From: Puia sp.
Lineage (GTDB): Bacteria; Bacteroidota; Bacteroidia; Chitinophagales; Chitinophagaceae
Length of the DNA: 64,000 nt
Assembly (NCBI GenBank): GCA_035295505.1
Contig: DATGIX010000104.1
Span: 10,809-74,808 of the forward strand
Reading direction: 5' to 3'
The first letter of the stretch is position 1; every line of letters begins with the position of its first letter. The position numbers were made by a program, and so were the translations under genes. Below the pieces are notes generated by a model. That model did not search any database and was not told the DNA's origin. It worked only from the letters and a program-made list of their open reading frames with translations. Below are positions 1,217 through 51,555 of the stretch, one piece after another.

Positions 1217-2230
1217 TCACTTCTTTCTCCTCAACCTCACCGTCGAACTTTGTGTGAGGCTGCTGCTCATATAAACTTCATAACGGTTTTTCCCATCTGA
1301 AATAATCATCAGCGCTGTGTTTGGCGGGATCGTGCCGAGGTTCTCAGCGAACATGCTGATTTCATTCATATCTGTGGTGCTGTCTAATGCAACATATAGG
1401 TTAATGGCTTTTGCAGATAAGCCCTGATGTGATAACACTAATTTATTATTCAGGAAAACAGAAATGCTGTCGCCGTCAATATCACCATTATCATAAAAAG
1501 TTACTTTCACAGAATCACTTTCAATCAGCAAATCTTTATTGTAAATATTTTTTCTCTTGGCATAAGCCTCTGTAATTTTTTTAACATCACTCGCTTCTTT
1601 CAACGGAGTGACATCAGTTGTTTTCAATGGTGGACCGTCAATCGAAATTTTTTTATTCTTTTTTATTTCTTCAAAATTGATTTCTTCTTTTTTAGATTCA
1701 TTAGCACTTACCACAAAATCATCCGGCTGTGGTTTCCACACTTGTTTGCCGGCAACTGCATTTGCCAATGTTTCATTGGTGTTTTCGCTGGTATCAATGG
1801 TGTAAGTAACTCTCAAATCAGGGCAAGTGTATTTATATTTTCCATCGTGATAAAAATGCCCGTTGATTTTTTTCTGCACTGCTGAAACAAATAATGTCCC
1901 GATAAAATCTGTGTTGCACTCAATGCTGTTCACTGTTGAATTCGTTCCATAATAAATAACAGGAATGTCTTGTATCGTTATCTCTTTTGTTTTTGCATTG
2001 TATGTTCCGTGAATGAAAAAACTTTGATACACATCTTTGAAATAATAACCGAAGATGCCTTCTATTTCATCGCCTTTTTGTTTGATGATTAATTCAGTGA
2101 GATAATTGCTAAAGTTGCCAGCCATGTCAACATCTGCTTTTCCATACCACGAGCCGGTGACAGTGTTGTTATTCTGCGCATGGAGAATATGGCAGATGAA
2201 AAGAAAAAGAGGTAGCAGCAGTTTTTTCAT
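1217..2230 (-). CDS. Secreted hypothetical protein
   Basis: 337-aa ORF with signal peptide; C-terminal VTFYDNGDIDGDSISVFLN beta-rich domain. Confidence 0.7.
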   Translation of the reverse strand: MKKLLLPLFLFICHILHAQNNNTVTGSWYGKADVDMAGNFSNYLTELIIKQKGDEIEGIFGYYFKDVYQSFFIHGTYNAKTKEITIQDIPVIYYGTNSTVNSIECNTDFIGTLFVSAVQKKINGHFYHDGKYKYTCPDLRVTYTIDTSENTNETLANAVAGKQVWKPQPDDFVVSANESKKEEINFEEIKKNKKISIDGPPLKTTDVTPLKEASDVKKITEAYAKRKNIYNKDLLIESDSVKVTFYDNGDIDGDSISVFLNNKLVLSHQGLSAKAINLYVALDSTTDMNEISMFAENLGTIPPNTALMIISDGKNRYEVYMSSSLTQSSTVRLRRKK

Positions 2231-2249
2231 GATGTTGAGTTAAATACAA

Positions 2250-2516
2250 TTTCACGCAACGAGGCAACGATTGCAACGAAGCAACGGGTACAAAGAAACA
2301 AAGGAATATTTGAAATCTCATTTTTTAAGACACCCGAATAAATAAGAAAATCTTAAAATGCATCTTCACATATTTTCACGCGACGAGCGCAGAGAATGCA
2401 ACGAAGCAACGGGTCATTAAATTCGCTACGTTCTTATAACTATGATTATTCAGTAAGTATAATACATTCAAAAAAAATCTTTGCGCTCGTTGCCTTCGTC
2501 GCCTCGTTGCGTGAAA
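2250..2516. repeat. Cluster of 8-9-nt periodic repeats (GCAACGA units): two forward arms (2250-2288, 2374-2412) and one inverted arm (2481-2516)
   Basis: tttcacgcaacgaggcaacga... versus ...gcctcgttgcgtgaaa; another copy at 15954-15973. Confidence 0.75.
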
Positions 2517-2520
2517 AAAT

Positions 2521-2546
2521 AAAAAAAGCCCGCTTGCGCGAGGCTT
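2521..2546 (-). terminator. Intrinsic terminator of rpsA
   Basis: Minus strand AAGCCTCGC-GCAA-GCGGGCTT followed by a T-run, 25 bp after the stop codon. Confidence 0.8.
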
Positions 2547-2571
2547 CGAGAAAACTGTGTATGTTATTCTC

Positions 2572-4551
2572 TTATTGCTTAGGTTCTTCGCTGCTGTCTG
2601 CTGCTGCTCCGCCTTTCTCACCTTTCTCTTCCTGTTGCAGTTTTTCTTTAATGCCTGCGAGTGCGCCAAGGTCTCCAAGCGTTGGTTTTTCAACTTTCGC
2701 CTGAATGTTCTTAACAGCTTTGCGTGCATTATCTGCTTCAGTTCTTTCCGCTTTTCTCGCAACTTCTTTTTCTTCTGTTTTCGCTTGTTCCCAAATGCGT
2801 GTGTGGGAAAGAACGATGCGTTTTTCGTTGCGGTCAAATTCAATCACCATGAACTGTGCAGTTTCATCAGCGTTCACTTGCTTGCCATCTTCTTTGAAAA
2901 GATGACGGTTAGGAGCAAAACCTTCGAGACCATAAGGCAACTGAACAAGCGCACCTTTATCATCTTTGCGCGTTACAGTTCCTTCGTGGATAGTGCCGAT
3001 AGCAAATGTTTGCTCGAGCGCATTCCAAGGGTCTTCTTCCAGTTGTTTATGTCCTAATTGCAACTTGCGATTGTCTTTATCGATTCCAAGAATTATCACT
3101 TCGATATTCTGTCCGACTTTTGTGTATTCTGAAGGATGATTGAAACGTTTCAGCCAGCTTAAATCACTGATGTGAATCATGCCGCCGATGCCCGGAGCGA
3201 GCTCAACAAACACGCCGTAAGGAGTGATGTTTTTCACAAGTCCTGTATGCTTGCTATCTTTCGGGAATTTAGTTTCAATAGTGCTCCATGGGTCTTCGCT
3301 TAATTGCTTAATAGAAAGACTCATTTTGCGTGAAGCCTTATCAAGCGTCACTACTTTTGCCTGATGCTCATCACCTAATTTGAAGAATTCTTTTGCATTG
3401 ATAGGTGTGTTTGCCCATGTGATTTCGCTCACGTGAACAAGACCTTCAACACCCGGCATCACTTCGAGGAATGCGCCGTAATCTTCAATGTTCACCACTT
3501 TGCCTTTCACGATTGCACCTTCCTTGATTGTTTCAGGAAGCACATCCCAAGGATGCGGCGTCAATTGTTTCAAGCCAAGGCTGATGCGTTTTTTGCCATC
3601 ATCAAAATCAAGCACAACCACCTGCAATTTCTGGTCAAGCTTCAGCACTTCGCTTGGGTGAGAAATTCTTCCCCAGCTAATGTCAGTGATGTATAATAAA
3701 CCGTCGAGACCACCGAGGTCCATGAACGCACCGAAGTCGGTGATGTTCTTGATAGTTCCTTCAAGCACCTGCCCTTTCTCGAGCTTGCTCATAATCTCTG
3801 CACGCTGTGCTTCGATATCGCTTTCAATAAGTGCTTTGTGAGATACTACCGCGTTCTTGATAGTTTCGTTGATTTTTACAACTTTGAACTCCATCGTTTT
3901 ATTAACGAACTGGTCGTAGTCAGTAACAGGCTTCACATCGATTTGTGAACCAGGAAGGAAAGTTTCCATGCCGAACACATCCACGATAAGACCGCCTTTA
4001 GTTTTGCTGGTAACAGTTCCAGTGACCACTTCGCCTGTTTTGTGAACTTCCACAATGCGCTCCCATGCACGTGTGATGCGTGCCTGTTTGCGGCTCAGGT
4101 GAAGGTGACCTTCTCTGTCTTCTTTTTCAACCACCATCACTTCCACTTCATCGCCCACTTTTAAATTTGGTGTGTCGCGGAATTCATTCAGTGAAACAAG
4201 GCCATCGCTTTTGAAACCGATGTTGATGACAACATCTGTTTTAGTGAGCGCCACAATCAATCCCTTCACCATTTCATTGTCGGTGATGGAAACGAAAGTG
4301 TTGTCGTACACGTTGTCGTACTTTTCCTTTTCTTCCTTCGTGTAAGGAGTAACATTGCGCTTGTCGATGCTCCAGTCAAAATCGTCGTGCGCAGTAACGA
4401 TTCTTTCTTCAACCGGAGGAACAGCCACAACCGGAACAACCTGAGGTTCCGCTGCCGCAGCAACAGGTGCATTTGTTGTCGCTGTAACCTCTGCACTTGC
4501 AGTCGGTTCCTGTCCTTCAGCGTTTGAGTTAACAATATTGTTTTCTGACAT
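2572..4551 (-). CDS. rpsA: 30S ribosomal protein S1
   Basis: Six S1 repeats (e.g. [29 protein letters not shown]); N-terminal HDDFDW motif typical of Bacteroidota. Confidence 0.98.
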
Positions 4552-9083: not shown

Positions 9084-9422
9084 ATGACTGTAATAACAGA
9101 CGAATACATGAAAGAAAAACTCACGGAAACAAAACCGTTTACCGTAGTTATCCTAAAGAAAGGGCCTAAATTCAAAATGCCGGAAGTGTTCCCGACAATA
9201 TGGGAGCACGGCAGAAAAAATTTTCAGCTAAAAGCAGAAGGAACACTCGCTGTTGTTTGCCCAATCAATGACGGCACCGAAGTCGCAGGCGTTGGCATTT
9301 TCACAACCAATGAAGAAGAAACCAAAAAGCTGATGGAAGAAGACCCTGCAATCAAAGCAGAAATTTTGCTGTATGAAATTCATCCTACAAAAAGTTTTCC
9401 CGGAAGCAGCTTGCCGTTGTAA
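9084..9422 (+). CDS. YciI-like protein
   Basis: GVGIF...EETKKLMEEDPAIKA motif. Confidence 0.7.
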   Translation: MTVITDEYMKEKLTETKPFTVVILKKGPKFKMPEVFPTIWEHGRKNFQLKAEGTLAVVCPINDGTEVAGVGIFTTNEEETKKLMEEDPAIKAEILLYEIHPTKSFPGSSLPL

Positions 9423-9488
9423 AAAGAATGCGACGCTAAATAGAAATGCTGACATTTTCTTTTCATCAAATTTTACAAATCAAATAAA

Positions 9489-9878
9489 ATGAATAAAGAA
9501 ATCAAAGCATACAACGATAAACAAACAGCTGAAGACAAAAAGATTTGCAATACGCTGTATCAGGAAATCAGCGCTCATTTAAAAGAAGCAGAAAATAAAA
9601 TCTGGCATGCGCATCCTGTTTGGTTTCTCGATGGAAACCCGATTGTTGGTTATAGCAAATTAAAAGACAGCGTCCGTTTATTATTCTGGAGCGGACAATC
9701 ATTTGATGAAGATGGGTTAGCAAAAGAAGGAAGTTTCAAAGCTGCAGAAAAACGCTACACATCATCTGAACAAATCAATAAAGGCGATTTGAAACGCTGG
9801 CTCGGAAAGTCGAGGGAAATTCAATGGGATTATAAAAATATTGTGAAGCGAAAAGGAGTTCTCGAAAAATTGAAATGA
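9489..9878 (+). CDS. DUF1801 (YdhG-like) protein
   Basis: KIWHAHPVWFLDGNPIVGYSK...LLFWSGQSF. Confidence 0.8.
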   Translation: MNKEIKAYNDKQTAEDKKICNTLYQEISAHLKEAENKIWHAHPVWFLDGNPIVGYSKLKDSVRLLFWSGQSFDEDGLAKEGSFKAAEKRYTSSEQINKGDLKRWLGKSREIQWDYKNIVKRKGVLEKLK

Positions 9879-47331: not shown

Positions 47332-47358
47332 TCTTGACCTATTTTATTTTTTGGACGG

Positions 47359-47366
47359 CAAAGGTA
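47359..47366 (-). promoter_or_regulatory. -7 promoter element of rpsL-rpsG
   Basis: TACCTTTG, 27 nt upstream of the ATG. Confidence 0.8.
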
Positions 47367-47509
47367 AAGACCGAGGAACTAATATCCAAATAAAAAAACA
47401 GTTTTTAGTAAGCAGTTCGCAGTATTCAGTTGGCAGGCTCAAATTCATAATCAAAACGGCATATATGTACTCAAAACAAAAGTAAAGATATTGATTTTAG
47501 TCAATTGTT

Positions 47510-47683
47510 TTAGGAATCGTTTTTGTGTTCTTTGTAATAATAAAACATGTTTATTATTGAAGACAGCACAAATAGACCCGCTGAAATTCTACCTAATAAT
47601 TTACAGTGAAAATGAAAAAACAATAAACCCAGAAATATAAAAAAGACTGCAATCAATCCCGTATTACCTGCATTAAGTTTCAT
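47510..47683 (-). CDS. Small two-TM membrane protein (57 aa; not in ORF track)
   Basis: Hand translation: MKLNAGNTGLIAVFFIFLGLLFFHFHCKLLGRISAGLFVLSSIINMFYYYKEHKNDS. Confidence 0.55.
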   Translation of the reverse strand: MKLNAGNTGLIAVFFIFLGLLFFHFHCKLLGRISAGLFVLSSIINMFYYYKEHKNDS

Positions 47684-47755
47684 TAACTGAATTTAGCAAA
47701 TATTCTTAATTGTGTTCTGGGTGCATATTTGCCTAACGATAACTAACTTTGTGAT

Positions 47756-47899
47756 ATGGCAGAAAAGAAAAAAAAGAAGCTCACTACTGAAGAAAAATTT
47801 GCTAACGCTGAAATGATACTGAAGGGGAAAAAAATAAATCCTCTCGGGAAAGAACTATTCGAAACAGTATTAAAAAAGACAGTTAAACCAAAAAAATAA
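47756..47899 (+). CDS. Small basic protein (47 aa; not in ORF track)
   Basis: MAEKKKKKLTTEEKFANAEMILKGKKINPLGKELFETVLKKTVKPKK; TAACTTTG ends 4 nt before the ATG. Confidence 0.65.
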   Translation: MAEKKKKKLTTEEKFANAEMILKGKKINPLGKELFETVLKKTVKPKK

Positions 47900-47908
47900 A
47901 AGTTTTTT

Positions 47909-48418
47909 TTATAAAGTTTCCGTTGAAACAGGTGATAAGGAATCTGGAAACCTCTTTTCAAGCTCATCTCTTAAGTTGGGGAAATAATAAGACACCATTG
48001 CAATTGGATTAGTCAATTGAATAAGAACATTATTAAATACAGTTCCTTTTAAAGATTGAGAAAATAATGCTCTTGTTTGCGGGATTGCTTCAGTGAAAAT
48101 TATTACATAAAATTCTAATGGTAATTTTATAGATTCCGCATCAACCATAAAAGATGTTAGCTCCTTTATAAAAAAAACATTTTCGACCTCAATTTGAGCT
48201 AATTGAACTGCGGGCGTATCCTCATAAAAAAAGAAAGCAGTTAAAACCAAATTTGCTAATTGAAATTCTAAGTTGAAGCCAATATTTTGCGCAATCTCAA
48301 TTTTCACGCGTCTATCTGCTCCGGGAATATAGCCCAACTCGTTAAGAGAAAACTTTCTTAATTTGATTTCGCGTACTTCAACAGTAATTAAGGAACCCTG
48401 AGAAGTATTAATCTGCAT
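47909..48418 (-). CDS. Putative SecB-like chaperone of a toxin-antitoxin-chaperone module
   Basis: 169 aa; beta-rich N-part followed by IIFTEAIPQTRALF..SLKGTVFNNVLIQLTNP, resembling the SecB C-terminal helix/strand pattern; 11-bp overlap with the antitoxin. Confidence 0.55.
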   Translation of the reverse strand: MQINTSQGSLITVEVREIKLRKFSLNELGYIPGADRRVKIEIAQNIGFNLEFQLANLVLTAFFFYEDTPAVQLAQIEVENVFFIKELTSFMVDAESIKLPLEFYVIIFTEAIPQTRALFSQSLKGTVFNNVLIQLTNPIAMVSYYFPNLRDELEKRFPDSLSPVSTETL

Positions 48419-48863
48419 ATTTAAGTTTTAAATAGGAATATATAACTTTAGTACTGTCGGGTTGTTCCTTAAATGGGCTAAAAGGTATAACCATAGCTTC
48501 TAAATTTTTATTCTCTTTGCTTTGTCTAAACTCTTTATATTTTAGTTTCTCATTTACATTAAAATTATAAGTAGGGAAATCCAATAATTCAAATTCCAAT
48601 TTTCGAGATAATTTCCAAATTGTTTGAAGGCTTAAATTTTCTTTTCCTTGTAAAACCCTGCTTATATATTGCCTTTCTACACCCAGCAATACTGCTAAAT
48701 CTGTCTGATTAAATTCATCTCGCGTATTTAAAATTGCAGATATATTACGAGCAATCTTAGCTGAATATTCGCTTAACCAAGGCTTTTCAATTTTTTCATT
48801 GACCTTTTCCTCCCATTTTGATGGAGTATTACTTATTAATTTTCTAAAGTTTTCATTTTTCAT
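48408..48863 (-). CDS. XRE/HigA-like HTH antitoxin with C-terminal extension
   Basis: NQTDLAVLLGVERQYISRVLQGKENLSLQTIWKL HTH; tail of about 50 aa ending VIYSYLKLKYAD. Confidence 0.8.
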   Translation of the reverse strand: MKNENFRKLISNTPSKWEEKVNEKIEKPWLSEYSAKIARNISAILNTRDEFNQTDLAVLLGVERQYISRVLQGKENLSLQTIWKLSRKLEFELLDFPTYNFNVNEKLKYKEFRQSKENKNLEAMVIPFSPFKEQPDSTKVIYSYLKLKYAD

Positions 48864-49467
48864 AATAAGAATATTTTATGTCATCCTGAGATGTCACATC
48901 ATTTTCCAGCAACCATTCTTTAACCTTTTGAAGTTTATTTAATTCTTCTAATGTATCATGATGATGCTCCATCCAATGTGTTAATTTGATAGCTCCCCCC
49001 GTTATCACAAATGTATTATCCTCAATTCTTAACCCGTAAAGCCTCAATATAGGTTGTGGATTATTTATTTTATCTTCTATTTTGAATTTTGACTCTTGTA
49101 ATGAATCCTCATCAAATTGCTTTTTTTCCTTTTCAAGAGGTTTAAATAAAGTTTGCAAAAAACCTGAAGAAGTTTTATAGCCATCTAATCTATATTGAAT
49201 AAATAAAGAGTAAATCTGCGTTGCTTCAAATTCTACCTTTTCTGATAGATTGAAAGCTTTATCAAAATGTCCAAATGTCTCGTAATAATCAAAATACGAA
49301 TCTTTTAGAAACTCTTCATTAAATAAAAAATAGCTTAAAACGAAATTAGAATCATCCCATTGTTCAAAGAGCCTTTCAAATTCATCTGGTTCACCTTCTC
49401 TGTATCTAACAGCAAAGAGACCTTCAACTGAACCCTCATCATCTACGAAGATAGGAACTAATTCCAT
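48853..49467 (-). CDS. Putative RelE/HigB-like toxin
   Basis: Start MELVPIF (49467); C-terminal LRLYGLRIEDNTFVITGGAIK pattern; 11-bp overlap with the HTH gene. Confidence 0.6.
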   Translation of the reverse strand: MELVPIFVDDEGSVEGLFAVRYREGEPDEFERLFEQWDDSNFVLSYFLFNEEFLKDSYFDYYETFGHFDKAFNLSEKVEFEATQIYSLFIQYRLDGYKTSSGFLQTLFKPLEKEKKQFDEDSLQESKFKIEDKINNPQPILRLYGLRIEDNTFVITGGAIKLTHWMEHHHDTLEELNKLQKVKEWLLENDVTSQDDIKYSYYEK

Positions 49468-49493
49468 AATTGTCAACTTAAAAGTTGACAATT
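49468..49493. promoter_or_regulatory. Palindromic operator abutting the toxin start codon
   Basis: aattgtcaact-taaa-agttgacaatt; extra half-site ttgtcaact at 49503-49511. Confidence 0.65.
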
Positions 49494-49548
49494 AGCCTTT
49501 GTTTGTCAACTATGATTGGAATCATAAATTAACAAATAAAGACTGGAA

Positions 49549-50427
49549 TTAAACCACGTGACTTAAAACAATATCAAACATTTCATCTTGTTTTTCTCTT
49601 TGCATCATTCTAAAGGCTACTTCATCAACATATTTTTGCAAATGTTTTGCTGATACATGAATATGTGTTCCTTTAATAGTACGCTTCAAATTTGACCATG
49701 CATTTTCTATATTATTGGTAGTGTATTCTCCCCTCTTATACTCATTCTCTATGTGGTTTATAACTTCGTGTTTTATGTAATGCAAATTTAATCCTGAATA
49801 TCCGGCGTGTGAATCGGTAACTATTGTAGCGTTAGCATCAACATTTGCCTTTACTCTTTCTCTGTAAGATTTAATGTCTGTCATTACTTCAAACTTTATT
49901 TGCTTCTTATCATTGATAAAGCCCATAACGCCTACTTTGTTATCAAACTTTGTATTTCCGCTCTCATAAATCTCTTTGCGCTCTTTAGCATGTTTGTTTG
50001 CTAATTTCATCCCGAACCAGCTTTCATCTATTTGCACAGTTCCCGTTAGCTTCGGCATTCTCTTATCAGCCATCAGTATTTTTATTTGGTGTGCCATGCG
50101 AAGGGCTGTTTTGTAACATACGTTCAATGTGCGCTCAATCTCTTTTGCGCTCACACCGTTTCGCGTTGTGCATTGCATATATATGATAAGAAACCAGTCT
50201 AACAAGGATGTTGTGCTTTTCTCAAATATTGTGTCTTTAGTGGGATATATCTGGAAAGCACAATTAGGGCAAAAATATGAGCGTCTGCCTTCCACTCTTT
50301 TAAACTTGTTATCGCTCTCGCATTTAGGGCAAATGAGGTTATTAAATCTTAGCTGAAAGATTTTGTCTAAACATGCATCATCGTTAGGATATGCAGTTCT
50401 GAATTGGTTTATAGTTAATTTGTTCAT
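49549..50427 (-). CDS. IS1595-family (ISXO2-like) DDE transposase
   Basis: Zn ribbon CPKC...CPNC, HTH, VQIDESWFG, IVTDSHAGY, TTNNIENAWSNLKR, HVSAKHLQKYVDEVAFR; start 50427. Confidence 0.93.
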   Translation of the reverse strand: MNKLTINQFRTAYPNDDACLDKIFQLRFNNLICPKCESDNKFKRVEGRRSYFCPNCAFQIYPTKDTIFEKSTTSLLDWFLIIYMQCTTRNGVSAKEIERTLNVCYKTALRMAHQIKILMADKRMPKLTGTVQIDESWFGMKLANKHAKERKEIYESGNTKFDNKVGVMGFINDKKQIKFEVMTDIKSYRERVKANVDANATIVTDSHAGYSGLNLHYIKHEVINHIENEYKRGEYTTNNIENAWSNLKRTIKGTHIHVSAKHLQKYVDEVAFRMMQREKQDEMFDIVLSHVV

Positions 50428-50477
50428 AGTTGTAACATTTAAGTTTGAAACTTGCAACTAACAAGACAAAAAATATA

Positions 50478-50660
50478 TTATCTCCGTCTTGCAATCACAG
50501 GTATTGCAGGGAATTTGTCAAGCTGAATGAATTGGATGCCATCAATAACAAAGCTGTTCATCTTCCCTTCTTTGATTAATTTGTATATGTATGAAGTAGT
50601 GACATTCTCTTTGAGAGCGTAGTTCTTAATCGTAATAAGATTATTCACTTCTACTTTCAT
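50478..50660 (-). CDS. Small excisionase/HTH-like DNA-binding protein (60 aa)
   Basis: MKVEVNNLITIKNYALKENVTTSYIYKLIKEGKMNSFVIDGIQFI; TATATTTG ends 4 nt before the ATG. Confidence 0.7.
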   Translation of the reverse strand: MKVEVNNLITIKNYALKENVTTSYIYKLIKEGKMNSFVIDGIQFIQLDKFPAIPVIARRR

Positions 50661-50738
50661 AGTGCAAATATATGTAAATAGTTGATAGTTGCAACATTCC
50701 AACTAATTATTTTTAAAACTATTTTATAGCTTTGCATC

Positions 50739-50876
50739 ATGCTTAATTTATACTTCATAATGTATGAATATAAATTCTTCGGGATATACTGGTATTACTT
50801 TGTGATTCTGATTTTTGCAATAATCATCGGCAAATACTTCTATGATAAATGGCGTGACAGGGATATGTATAAATAA
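50739..50876 (+). CDS. Small single-TM membrane protein (45 aa; not in ORF track)
   Basis: MLNLYFIMYEYKFFGIYWYYFVILIFAIIIGKYFYDKWRDRDMYK; TAGCTTTG ends 4 nt before the ATG. Confidence 0.55.
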   Translation: MLNLYFIMYEYKFFGIYWYYFVILIFAIIIGKYFYDKWRDRDMYK

Positions 50877-50883
50877 GCACAAA

Positions 50884-51387
50884 TCATTTAAACTCTATCG
50901 TATCAGAGTTGAATAGTAAATCAAAGCCATTGAACTTGTATTCATCCCTTAATCTTGTTCCTTCATCTGTCAGCCATTCAGATTTTACCCAATACAAACC
51001 TCTGTGCGTTCCTTTCTCTTGTAATAATCTCAGGATTTGGTGTTTGTTCAGGTTTCTCAGGCTTTCGCGGATATTGTGTTTGCTGCCTGTCAATTCTGTG
51101 AACTTATCTTGCACTTCTCTTAGCTTGCTTGCAACCCCGAGAATATCGAACACCTTAATGATTTGTACTTTCAAATCTGCTTTTAGCGGGAATGTTGATT
51201 GGCTCTGCATTTCATTATGTGGTGCAATTGGTGCAGCATTATCATTTACCTGAGATAACCTGAGATTTAGATTGCCAAACTTAATTCGCTTTATTACCTT
51301 ATCAATATCATTTACTTTATCTAAAAGCTCTTTCTTTTCTTTTGTCAAGCTCATTAATATCAGCTCAACATCTTGTGATTGTTCCAT
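50884..51387 (-). CDS. Hypothetical transposon cargo protein (N-terminal coiled coil)
   Basis: 167-aa ORF inside the TIRs; TAACTTTG at 51414-51421 upstream. Confidence 0.65.
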   Translation of the reverse strand: MEQSQDVELILMSLTKEKKELLDKVNDIDKVIKRIKFGNLNLRLSQVNDNAAPIAPHNEMQSQSTFPLKADLKVQIIKVFDILGVASKLREVQDKFTELTGSKHNIRESLRNLNKHQILRLLQEKGTHRGLYWVKSEWLTDEGTRLRDEYKFNGFDLLFNSDTIEFK

Positions 51388-51555
51388 TCTATTTGTTGTT
51401 TAATTAATAACTGCAAAGTTATCAATCAAATACAGCCATAAATAAAAACACGCGAGAATGTCGCGTGCTATCAGGTTTACTTTTGTTCTGACTACATATA
51501 TGCCATCAAAACCGCCATCACAGAACCCCACAAACTACAAACCATAAACTACAAA

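What the first reader, a model, noticed from the sequence alone, without database searches (positions are those of the whole stretch)
47458..51504. Complete 4-kb IS1595-family cargo transposon with intact ends
Seen: 29-bp TIRs (2 mismatches), a perfect 8-bp flanking direct repeat (atcaaaac), an uninterrupted transposase in the middle of the element and seven other ORFs. Known: IS1595-family elements make 8-bp target duplications and some subgroups carry passenger genes. Inference: a recent, probably still mobile vehicle for defence cargo. The boundaries would be missed by annotating the transposase alone.
Basis: partly seen in the sequence, partly recalled or inferred. Interest (0 to 1): 0.8.

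Follow-up and report, generated by a model that had tools for sequence, protein, structure and literature searches.

The report
Cargo-carrying IS1595 transposon with TAC module
This is a complete 4-kb jumping gene of the known IS1595 family, inserted between two housekeeping genes of a soil Bacteroidota bacterium; it carries a three-gene toxin-antitoxin-chaperone cassette, and its relatives carry other anti-phage-type cassettes in the same slot.

Summary
The 29-nt terminal inverted repeats (27/29) sit at 47458-47486 and 51476-51504, flanked by a perfect 8-bp duplication (ATCAAAAC). A relative with about 91% identical flanks has ilvE and rpsL adjacent, with one copy of the site and no element.

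The transposase is an intact IS1595-family DDE enzyme. Twelve further complete relatives from Chitinophagaceae-type soil contigs each have matching ends and their own perfect 8-bp duplication.

The closer relatives share a four-gene backbone:
- a 167-aa coiled-coil/winged-helix protein;
- a 60-aa HTH protein;
- the transposase;
- a small lysine-rich protein.

Cargo differs in every element. Eight of 13 match anti-phage or toxin-antitoxin models (PD-T4-9, PD-T4-10, RosmerTA-like, methyltransferase).

The window's cargo is a three-gene operon: a 212-aa unknown protein, a 151-aa XRE-HTH protein and a 169-aa protein that models confidently as a SecB-like chaperone. This is the toxin-antitoxin-chaperone (TAC) layout.

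The element is a new member of the known "transporter IS" class. Current mobility and a defence function are inferred, not shown.

The parts
47450..47457 (.). Left copy of the 8-bp target-site duplication, ATCAAAAC
   Evidence: The relative's empty site has a single TCCAAAAC here.
47458..47486 (+). Terminal inverted repeat at the cargo-side (distal) end, GGCATATATGTACTCAAAACAAAAGTAAA
   Evidence: The last ~49 bp of the element are homologous to the distal end of L036.
47510..47683 (-). 57-aa hydrophobic ORF in the variable stretch between the K-rich gene and the distal repeat; doubtful as a gene
   Evidence: No homology to other elements. L036 has an unrelated small membrane-type ORF at the same position.
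47756..47899 (+). Small lysine-rich basic protein (47 aa), a conserved backbone gene convergent with the transposase
   Evidence: It aligns with equivalents in L004, L006, L012, L036, L037 and L044 at 35-77% identity. It was called as a gene in an independent assembly. Its DNA is homologous to L036.
47909..48418 (-). Cargo gene 3: SecB-like chaperone (169 aa)
   Evidence: AlphaFold2 model on 70 homologues has pLDDT 92.4. The top 18 PDB fold matches are all SecB or the M. tuberculosis Rv1957 TAC chaperone, probability 1.00, TM 0.54-0.69 normalised to the target. The family has about 140 cluster representatives. PADLOC PDC-M64C scores 2e-7.
48408..48863 (-). Cargo gene 2: XRE-type HTH protein (151 aa), putative antitoxin with a ~58-aa C-terminal tail; overlaps both neighbours by 11 nt
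   Evidence: Pfam HTH_3 scores 1.6e-7 over residues 52-93. It matches HigA/HipB-type antitoxin and PDC-M64 models. Homologues occupy the same middle position in L046, L047 and L049.
48853..49491 (-). Cargo gene 1: 212-aa protein of no named family (204 aa from the ATG at 49467), putative toxin
   Evidence: No Pfam, NCBIfam or PDB sequence match. Weak PDC-M64B hit, 1.5e-4. Homologues precede the HTH and SecB-like genes in L046, L047 and L049.
49549..50427 (-). IS1595-family DDE transposase (292 aa from the conserved ATG; the ORF extends to a TTG at 50457)
   Evidence: PF12762 3.6e-31, PF12760 zinc ribbon, NF033547 9.8e-47. D134, D205, E241 and CxxC...CxxC are conserved in at least 98% of 113 relatives.
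50478..50660 (-). Backbone gene B: 60-aa helix-turn-helix protein (weakly excisionase-like)
   Evidence: It is 47-95% identical in sister elements and always sits just upstream of the transposase. The only family hint is TIGR01764 'excise' at E=0.017.
50884..51387 (-). Backbone gene A: 167-aa protein with an N-terminal coiled coil and a C-terminal winged-helix domain
   Evidence: 82 relatives, all unnamed and without Pfam domains. Model pLDDT 75: helix 3-37, disordered 42-62, winged-helix-like 68-135. The top fold hits are winged-helix DNA binders but weak, E about 0.1.
51447..51469 (-). Intrinsic-terminator-like hairpin plus T-run just inside the repeat, facing read-through from ilvE; followed by a TAnnTTTG box upstream of gene A
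   Evidence: The hairpin is kept with changes on both arms in L001, L036 and L044, and the TAACTTTG-type box is kept in five of the eight aligned elements.
51476..51504 (-). Terminal inverted repeat at the backbone-side (gene A) end
   Evidence: It aligns with the ends of seven sister elements.
51505..51512 (.). Right copy of the 8-bp target-site duplication, ATCAAAAC

Best explanation
Window 47458-51504 is one 4047-bp unit transposon of the IS1595 family, a 'transporter IS' (tIS). It entered the 167-bp spacer between ilvE and rpsL by DDE transposition and duplicated 8 bp of target.

It belongs to a lineage of Chitinophagaceae-type soil bacteria. The backbone of the closer members runs: inverted repeat, terminator hairpin, gene A (coiled-coil/winged-helix), gene B (60-aa HTH), transposase, a convergent small lysine-rich gene, inverted repeat. 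Unrelated gene cassettes sit in defined slots, mainly between the transposase and the lysine-rich gene.

In the window that slot holds a translationally coupled three-gene operon of the toxin-antitoxin-chaperone type:
- a 212-aa putative toxin;
- an XRE-HTH antitoxin;
- a SecB-like chaperone presumed to stabilise the antitoxin.

Shown here: the boundaries, the duplication, the empty site, the family, the cargo variability and the SecB-like fold.

Inferred: that the transposase is still active; that A, B and the small basic protein act in transposition or its control; that the 212-aa protein is a toxin; and that the cassette protects against phage or simply stabilises the element.
For: Ends and duplication.

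Empty site: the joined flanks align end to end, 91.3% over 1743 bp, with L032 and L034. There ilvE and rpsL are adjacent with one TCCAAAAC.

Transposase identity and catalytic residues.

Twelve further complete elements have the same terminal motif (commonly GGnnTATrTGTAGyCArrAC; L005a and L025 depart from it) and their own perfect 8-bp duplications: L001, L004, L005a, L006, L012, L021, L023, L025, L026, L036, L037 and L044.

Backbone genes are conserved while cargo shares nothing between elements. Against the closest relative L036, homology is confined to element positions 1-624, 790-1956, 3628-3766 and 3999-4047. This leaves a sharp cargo slot at 1957-3627.

Cargo of sister elements:
- PD-T4-10 A+B in L023 and L036, and B only in L001;
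- PD-T4-9 A+C with a SecB domain in L004;
- RmrA at 3e-57 in L026;
- an M78 peptidase plus a DUF4411 PIN protein in L006;
- a 790-aa type II/IIG methyltransferase in L021.

Window cargo: SecB-like model and fold hits. The same three-gene order recurs outside any tIS in L046, L047 and L049.

The rpsL-side junction is confirmed at 100% identity by two other assemblies.
Against:
- Wherever one exact transposase was found on several contigs, it sat at the same locus. The elements therefore look single-copy, and transposition may be rare.
- The ilvE-side junction is spanned only by the window's own assembly. Two other assemblies break inside genes A and B.
- The 212-aa 'toxin' matches no known toxin family.
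- The PDC-M64 hits are weak, and that PADLOC candidate has no literature behind it.
- The winged-helix assignment for gene A rests on weak fold hits, E about 0.1.
Confidence: 0.88

Rival explanations
1. A fixed relic. The element arrived by transposition but is no longer mobile, and host selection now maintains only the cargo, or the cargo's own addiction effect does.
For: Each exact transposase was found at a single locus across samples. L026 shows that family members do decay, since its transposase is broken into fragments. L001, L044 and L005a occupy the same orthologous spot, which could reflect old vertical inheritance rather than fresh hops.
Against: In the window the transposase, both repeats (27/29) and the duplication (8/8) are intact. 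G+C is still 10 points below the host's. Thirteen different insertion sites exist in the family.
Confidence: 0.3
2. The cargo is an ordinary addiction or stabilisation toxin-antitoxin module with no role in phage defence. It benefits the transposon by killing cells that lose it, rather than benefiting the host.
For: The classical TAC of M. tuberculosis is described as a stress-responsive toxin-antitoxin system (title and abstract listed, PMC3581621). No defence model scores strongly on the window's cargo.
Against: E. coli HigBAC and CmdTAC (PD-T4-9) are TAC systems with demonstrated anti-phage activity. Sister elements carry PD-T4-9-like, PD-T4-10-like, RosmerTA-like and methyltransferase cassettes in their cargo slots, which points to a defence-type cargo pool.
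Confidence: 0.4
3. This is not one transposon. A plain 1-kb IS1595 insertion sequence lies among unrelated island genes, and the outer inverted repeats are coincidental or belong to another element.
For: Most IS1595 members are about 1 kb and carry only a transposase (own knowledge of ISfinder).
Against: No inverted repeats flank the transposase gene itself. The outer ends are shared by 12 relatives that each have an 8-bp duplication. The relative's empty site lacks the whole 4047 bp at once. The foreign G+C spans the whole interval.
Confidence: 0.02

Closest known systems
Transporter IS (tIS) of the IS1595 family (Siguier, Gagnevin & Chandler 2009, cited in PMC3129680; TnCentral preprint 10.1101/2021.05.26.445724); from memory, the ISNwi1+/ISNha5-type subgroups
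   Same: A single IS1595-type DDE transposase with an N-terminal zinc ribbon, short terminal inverted repeats, an 8-bp target duplication, and passenger genes inside the repeats. Total size is within the 1.7-8 kb I recall for these subgroups. The D-D-E...K spacing and GG-start ends resemble ISNwi1 as I recall it.
   Different: This lineage has three conserved non-transposase backbone genes (167-aa coiled-coil/winged-helix, 60-aa HTH, about 47-aa lysine-rich) and defined cargo slots. I found no description of these in the searched literature. Subgroup assignment could not be tested because no ISfinder search was available here.
Toxin-antitoxin-chaperone (TAC) systems: M. tuberculosis HigB1-HigA1-Rv1957; E. 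coli HigBAC and CmdTAC/PD-T4-9 (10.1101/2024.02.24.581848; PMC11618068; PMC9519451)
   Same: The three-gene order is putative toxin, XRE-HTH antitoxin with a C-terminal tail, then a SecB-like chaperone. The chaperone model matches SecB and Rv1957 structures. The genes overlap, which implies co-translation.
   Different: The first gene (212 aa) matches no HigB, CmdT or other named toxin family. The chaperone family is not recognised by Pfam SecB (1 of 70 members at 0.003). The chaperone-addiction element in the antitoxin tail is assumed, not shown.
PADLOC candidate system PDC-M64
   Same: All three cargo proteins hit PDC-M64 B/C models, the best at 8.7e-10 for the HTH protein and 2e-7 for the chaperone.
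   Different: The hits are weak, and the HTH protein matches both the B and C models. PDC-M64 is an untested candidate with no paper in the searched library.
Defence-cargo transposons such as Tn7-like elements (own knowledge: Benler et al. 2021)
   Same: A conserved transposition module with a variable cargo region enriched in defence and toxin-antitoxin genes, and recurrent use of the same chromosomal spot by different cargo variants (TPM-phosphatase gene 3' end).
   Different: Far smaller (3-5.4 kb), with a one-protein DDE transposase. There is no TnsABC-type machinery and no evident target-selector protein.

Membership tests
IS1595 family insertion sequences | DDE transposase of the ISXO2/IS1595 type with an N-terminal zinc ribbon | tested here: met
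   PF12762 3.6e-31 (cut-off 27 bits, score 108.7). PF12760 2.8e-6 (27.6 bits against a cut-off of 25.4). NF033547 9.8e-47.
IS1595 family insertion sequences | Intact catalytic D, D, E (plus K/R) residues | tested here: met
   D134, D205, E241, R249 and four zinc-ribbon cysteines are conserved in at least 98% of 113 aligned relatives and are present in the window's protein.
IS1595 family insertion sequences | Terminal inverted repeats and an 8-bp direct target repeat | tested here: met
   29-nt repeats at 27/29 and ATCAAAAC on both sides. Twelve relatives also have 8-bp duplications.
IS1595 family insertion sequences | Assignment to a named ISfinder subgroup or element by BLAST of the transposase and ends | not testable with these tools
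   No ISfinder copy is available. Public names of relatives say only 'IS1595 family transposase'.
Transporter IS (tIS) | Passenger genes unrelated to transposition lie inside the IS ends and move with it | tested here: met
   The empty site lacks the whole 4047 bp. Cargo differs completely between sister elements with homologous backbones.
TAC (toxin-antitoxin-chaperone) systems | A dedicated SecB-like chaperone encoded in the operon | tested here: met
   Model pLDDT 92.4. The top 18 PDB fold hits are SecB or Rv1957, probability 1.00. The only sequence-profile hits in the PDB are SecB, but at E=0.5.
TAC (toxin-antitoxin-chaperone) systems | An antitoxin carrying a C-terminal chaperone-addiction (ChAD) extension | tested here: inconclusive
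   The 151-aa protein has its HTH_3 domain at 52-93 and a ~58-aa aromatic-containing tail. No test of the ChAD element was possible.
TAC (toxin-antitoxin-chaperone) systems | A recognisable toxin (HigB, CmdT, HEPN, MqsR and similar) | tested here: not met
   The 212-aa protein and three homologues match no Pfam, NCBIfam or PDB toxin. Its role as toxin is inferred from its position only.
TAC (toxin-antitoxin-chaperone) systems | The three genes co-occur as a conserved unit in unrelated contexts | tested here: met
   The same order occurs in L046 (chromosomal, no family ends nearby), L047 (between IS1-like and IS256-like transposases) and L049.
Anti-phage defence system | Protects a host against phage infection | not testable with these tools
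   Only model similarity is available: weak PDC-M64 hits for the window, and stronger PD-T4-9, PD-T4-10 and RmrA hits in sister elements.

The most novel reading that the evidence does not exclude
This Chitinophagaceae tIS lineage may be a dedicated shuttle for defence and toxin-antitoxin cassettes. It has a four-gene backbone (coiled-coil/winged-helix protein, mini-HTH, transposase, small basic protein), fixed cargo slots, shuffling of backbone modules between elements, and repeated use of preferred chromosomal spots. On this reading, single IS-type transposases seed and refresh small defence islands. The accessory DNA-binding proteins would control when the element moves, or which ends or cargo it uses.
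Probability: 0.3. Interest if true: 0.6.

Novelty: new member of a known kind. Interest (0 to 1): 0.42.

Why it matters
Annotation pipelines label only the transposase. The true unit is 4 kb and includes a self-contained toxin-antitoxin-chaperone cassette inserted 126 bp upstream of the rpsL operon.

At family level, 13 bounded elements with 13 different cargoes give a clean natural catalogue. Eight of the cargoes match defence or toxin-antitoxin models. This shows small cassettes being moved by a one-protein transposase in soil Bacteroidota.

The five cargoes with no match are cheap candidates for new conflict systems. The three conserved accessory genes are untested candidates for transposition control.

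None of this changes the known concept of transporter IS or of TAC systems.

Tried and rejected
- The viral-contig scan with gene A found nothing. There is no sign of a phage origin.
- The word-based homology search for the 169-aa protein found only itself. The exhaustive search was needed.
- Direct BLASTP of the 169-aa protein against the SecB-domain protein of L004 showed no similarity. Pfam SecB is not detected in the window's protein. The SecB assignment therefore rests on the fold.
- The PDB profile search for the 212-aa family gave only an implausible lipocalin hit at 0.0015, which I dismissed as noise.
- My impression that the C-terminal half of the 212-aa protein resembles HigB/Gp49-type RelE-fold toxins comes from memory of motifs only. 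No tool supported it, so it is not claimed.
- The idea that multi-contig transposases mean multi-copy elements was rejected. All contigs showed the same locus.
- No target-site consensus emerged beyond 71% A+T in the 13 duplications.
Full report
**Observation.** The claimed features are present exactly where stated.
- The arms 47458-47486 and 51476-51504 are 29 nt long with 2 mismatches. They are the longest inverted repeat in the region.
- The 12-nt tip GGCATATATGTA occurs nowhere else in the 64-kb window.
- ATCAAAAC abuts both ends.
- The interval has 30-32% G+C, against 40-44% in the flanking rpsL/rpsG and ilvE genes.
- The transposase ORF is uninterrupted. Alignment with relatives puts its start at the ATG that gives 292 aa (49549-50427).

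**Is it one mobile unit?** Three lines of evidence say yes.

1. Looking up the exact S12 protein of the window recovered contigs L032 and L034 from a related organism. There the ilvE-type aminotransferase and rpsL are adjacent.
   - The window's two flanks, joined in silico, align with these contigs without a break (91.3% over 1743 bp).
   - The contigs carry one copy of the site, TCCAAAAC.
2. Scans with the transposase gave further loci. In these I found twelve more complete elements of 2.5-5.4 kb.
   - Each has the same kind of end, commonly GGnnTATrTGTAGyCArrAC; L005a and L025 depart from it.
   - Each has its own perfect 8-bp flanking repeat: GTAAACAG, TGGTAGCT, AAAGAGAA, TGTCTGAT, AAAAATAT, TTAAAATT, GAAATTAT, CTCTCAAG, TAAATTAT, GTGAGAGG, GTTAGGAG and GTAGATAA.
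3. Two other assemblies of the same organism (L030/L033 and L031, 100% identical) span the rpsL-side junction.
   - They break inside genes A and B, so the ilvE-side junction rests on the window's assembly alone.
   - Its matching repeat and duplication make a misjoin very unlikely.

**The transposase.** It matches the IS1595 models strongly: PF12762 at 3.6e-31, the PF12760 zinc ribbon, and NF033547 at 9.8e-47. In an alignment of 113 relatives, D134, D205, E241, R249 and the CxxC...CxxC cysteines are conserved in at least 98% of sequences. All are present in the window's protein. More than 1200 relatives exist. The named ones come from Puia, Ferruginibacter, Sediminibacterium, Panacibacter and other Chitinophagaceae.

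**Backbone and cargo.** All-against-all comparison of the proteins of the first seven complete elements shows a conserved backbone in the closer members and wholly different cargo (later elements). In reading order the backbone is as follows.
- The repeat, then a terminator-like hairpin facing outward (51447-51469). The hairpin is kept with changes on both arms in L001, L036 and L044.
- A TAnnTTTG-type box.
- Gene A (167 aa).
- Gene B (60 aa).
- The transposase.
- A convergent 47-aa lysine-rich gene (47756-47899).

Gene A has 82 relatives, all unnamed and without Pfam domains. Its model (pLDDT 75) is a long N-terminal helix, a disordered linker and a winged-helix-like domain. The fold matches are to winged-helix DNA binders but are weak, with E about 0.1. 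Gene B is a mini-HTH with only a faint excisionase-type hint.

Against the closest relative L036 (transposase 85% identical), DNA homology is confined to four segments in element coordinates: 1-624, 790-1956, 3628-3766 and 3999-4047. The cargo therefore sits in a sharply bounded slot between the stop codons of the transposase and the lysine-rich gene.

The backbone itself is mosaic. The second element in L005 has A at 92% and B at 95% identity to the window, but a transposase at only 62%. L036 shows A at 66%, B at 85% and the transposase at 85%.

**Cargo of the family.** Eight of the 13 elements carry cassettes that match defence or toxin-antitoxin models.
- PD-T4-10 A+B in L023 (1e-21 and 2e-23) and L036 (1e-17 and 2e-10), and the B protein in L001.
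- PD-T4-9 A and C, with a Pfam SecB domain, in L004. This is the CmdTAC type.
- An RmrA-type HTH/M78 protein at 3e-57 in L026.
- An M78 peptidase plus a DUF4411 PIN protein in L006.
- A 790-aa type II/IIG methyltransferase in L021.
- The window's own cassette.

L005a, L012, L025, L037 and L044 carry genes with no match.

**Cargo of the window.** The three genes overlap by 11 nt each (48853-49491, 48408-48863, 47909-48418).
- The middle protein is an XRE-type HTH. It resembles HigA/HipB antitoxins and has a ~58-aa C-terminal tail.
- The last protein has no close relatives, but an exhaustive search found 140 cluster representatives.
  - A model built on 70 of them is confident, with pLDDT 92.4 and pTM 0.84.
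  - Its top 18 structural matches are all SecB or the M. tuberculosis Rv1957 SecB-like chaperone in complex with the HigA1 ChAD peptide.
  - The sequence profile's only PDB hits are also SecB, but at E=0.5.
- The first protein (212 aa) matches nothing named.
- The same three-gene order, with homologues of all three proteins, recurs in L046, L047 and L049. L046 is a chromosomal site without family ends. L047 lies between IS1-like and IS256-like transposases.

The cassette is therefore a self-contained unit with the TAC layout, and the element picked it up as cargo. Some TACs are shown anti-phage systems, namely HigBAC and CmdTAC/PD-T4-9. All three proteins also hit the untested PADLOC candidate PDC-M64 weakly. 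No paper mentions that candidate. A defence role is a reasonable but unproven inference. Plain addiction is the main alternative.

**Mechanism, with status.**
- Shown: insertion by a cut that leaves an 8-bp duplication; a single-protein DDE transposase; carriage of the whole 4 kb as one unit; exchangeable cargo in set slots.
- Inferred from knowledge of DDE insertion sequences: the transposase binds the two ~29-bp ends and moves everything between them, and the outward terminator shields the element from ilvE read-through.
- Inferred from TAC biology (10.1101/2024.02.24.581848): the SecB-like protein keeps the antitoxin soluble through its tail, and a competing client such as a phage protein frees the toxin.
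- Unknown: the roles of A, B and the lysine-rich protein. My best guess is DNA-binding regulators or architectural factors of transposition.

**Comparison with the known.** Passenger-carrying IS1595 elements are an established class. They are called 'transporter IS' and are reported only for the IS1595 and IS66 families. All testable family features are met. Subgroup placement needs ISfinder. From memory, the GG-start ends, the D-D-E...K motif and the size fit ISNwi1+ best.

I found no paper describing IS1595 elements as carriers of defence cassettes, nor this backbone. Other agents of this scan have noted many similar cases. Those notes are leads, not evidence, but they mean the theme is recurrent rather than singular.

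**Limits.** Copy number in the source genome and excision in reads are therefore untested. 'Recent' means only later than the split from a relative whose flanks are 91% identical. Where one exact transposase was seen on many contigs, it was always at the same locus, so activity may be low.

**Verdict.** This is a real, complete and well-bounded tIS of the IS1595 family carrying a TAC-type cassette. It is a new member of a known kind. The family-level picture is the more interesting part.

Noticed in passing
L001:4478-4497; L044:4903-4922; L005:2600-2625: Three different family members with different cargo sit at or a few bases after the stop codon of the orthologous TPM_phosphatase gene of a LemA-TPM-TPM operon. 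L001 and L044 share exactly the same offset; L005a lies four bases further downstream. This is either a preferred target or an old insertion whose cargo has been replaced.
   Followed up: partly
L005:2618-7089 and L005:7098-10856: Two family elements lie in tandem. The first (duplication AAAGAGAA) abuts the end of a second element whose terminus is degenerate (CTGATATATAAAG instead of GGCATATATGTAG). The second element's genes A and B are 92-95% identical to the window's, but its transposase is only 62% identical, so backbone modules recombine between elements.
   Followed up: partly
window 50529 and 51061 (ends of L031 and L030): Two independent assemblies of the same organism break inside genes B and A of the element. 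This is consistent with near-identical A/B modules in other elements of the same community.
   Followed up: no
L036:5243-5272: A solitary family terminus (GGCATATGTGTAGCCAGAATAC) lies about 750 bp beyond the complete element. It is possibly the remnant of another insertion.
   Followed up: no
window 51528-51555: Tandem 14-nt units (CCACAAACTACAAA / CCATAAACTACAAA) lie between the ilvE stop and the insertion site. They are also present in the relative's empty site, and seem to be the same kind of short periodic repeat another note reports in the ribosomal-protein operons of this genome.
   Followed up: no
L047:122-3470: A homologue of the window's three-gene TAC cassette lies between an IS1-like and an IS256-like transposase gene. 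The cassette type is therefore associated with other mobile elements as well.
   Followed up: no
L044:6816-8534; L005:5034-6502; L012:4247-5596; L037:8016-9197; L025:7115-7717 and 9090-9518: Cargo operons of five bounded sister elements have no defence-model or informative Pfam match; only DUF7689 and a weak DUF6978 hit appear. They are candidate new conflict systems by association.
   Followed up: partly
window 47332-47457: The element sits 126 bp upstream of the rpsL start codon, with all cargo genes pointing towards rpsL. Whether the native rpsL promoter survives, or read-through from the element contributes to rpsL expression, was not examined.
   Followed up: no
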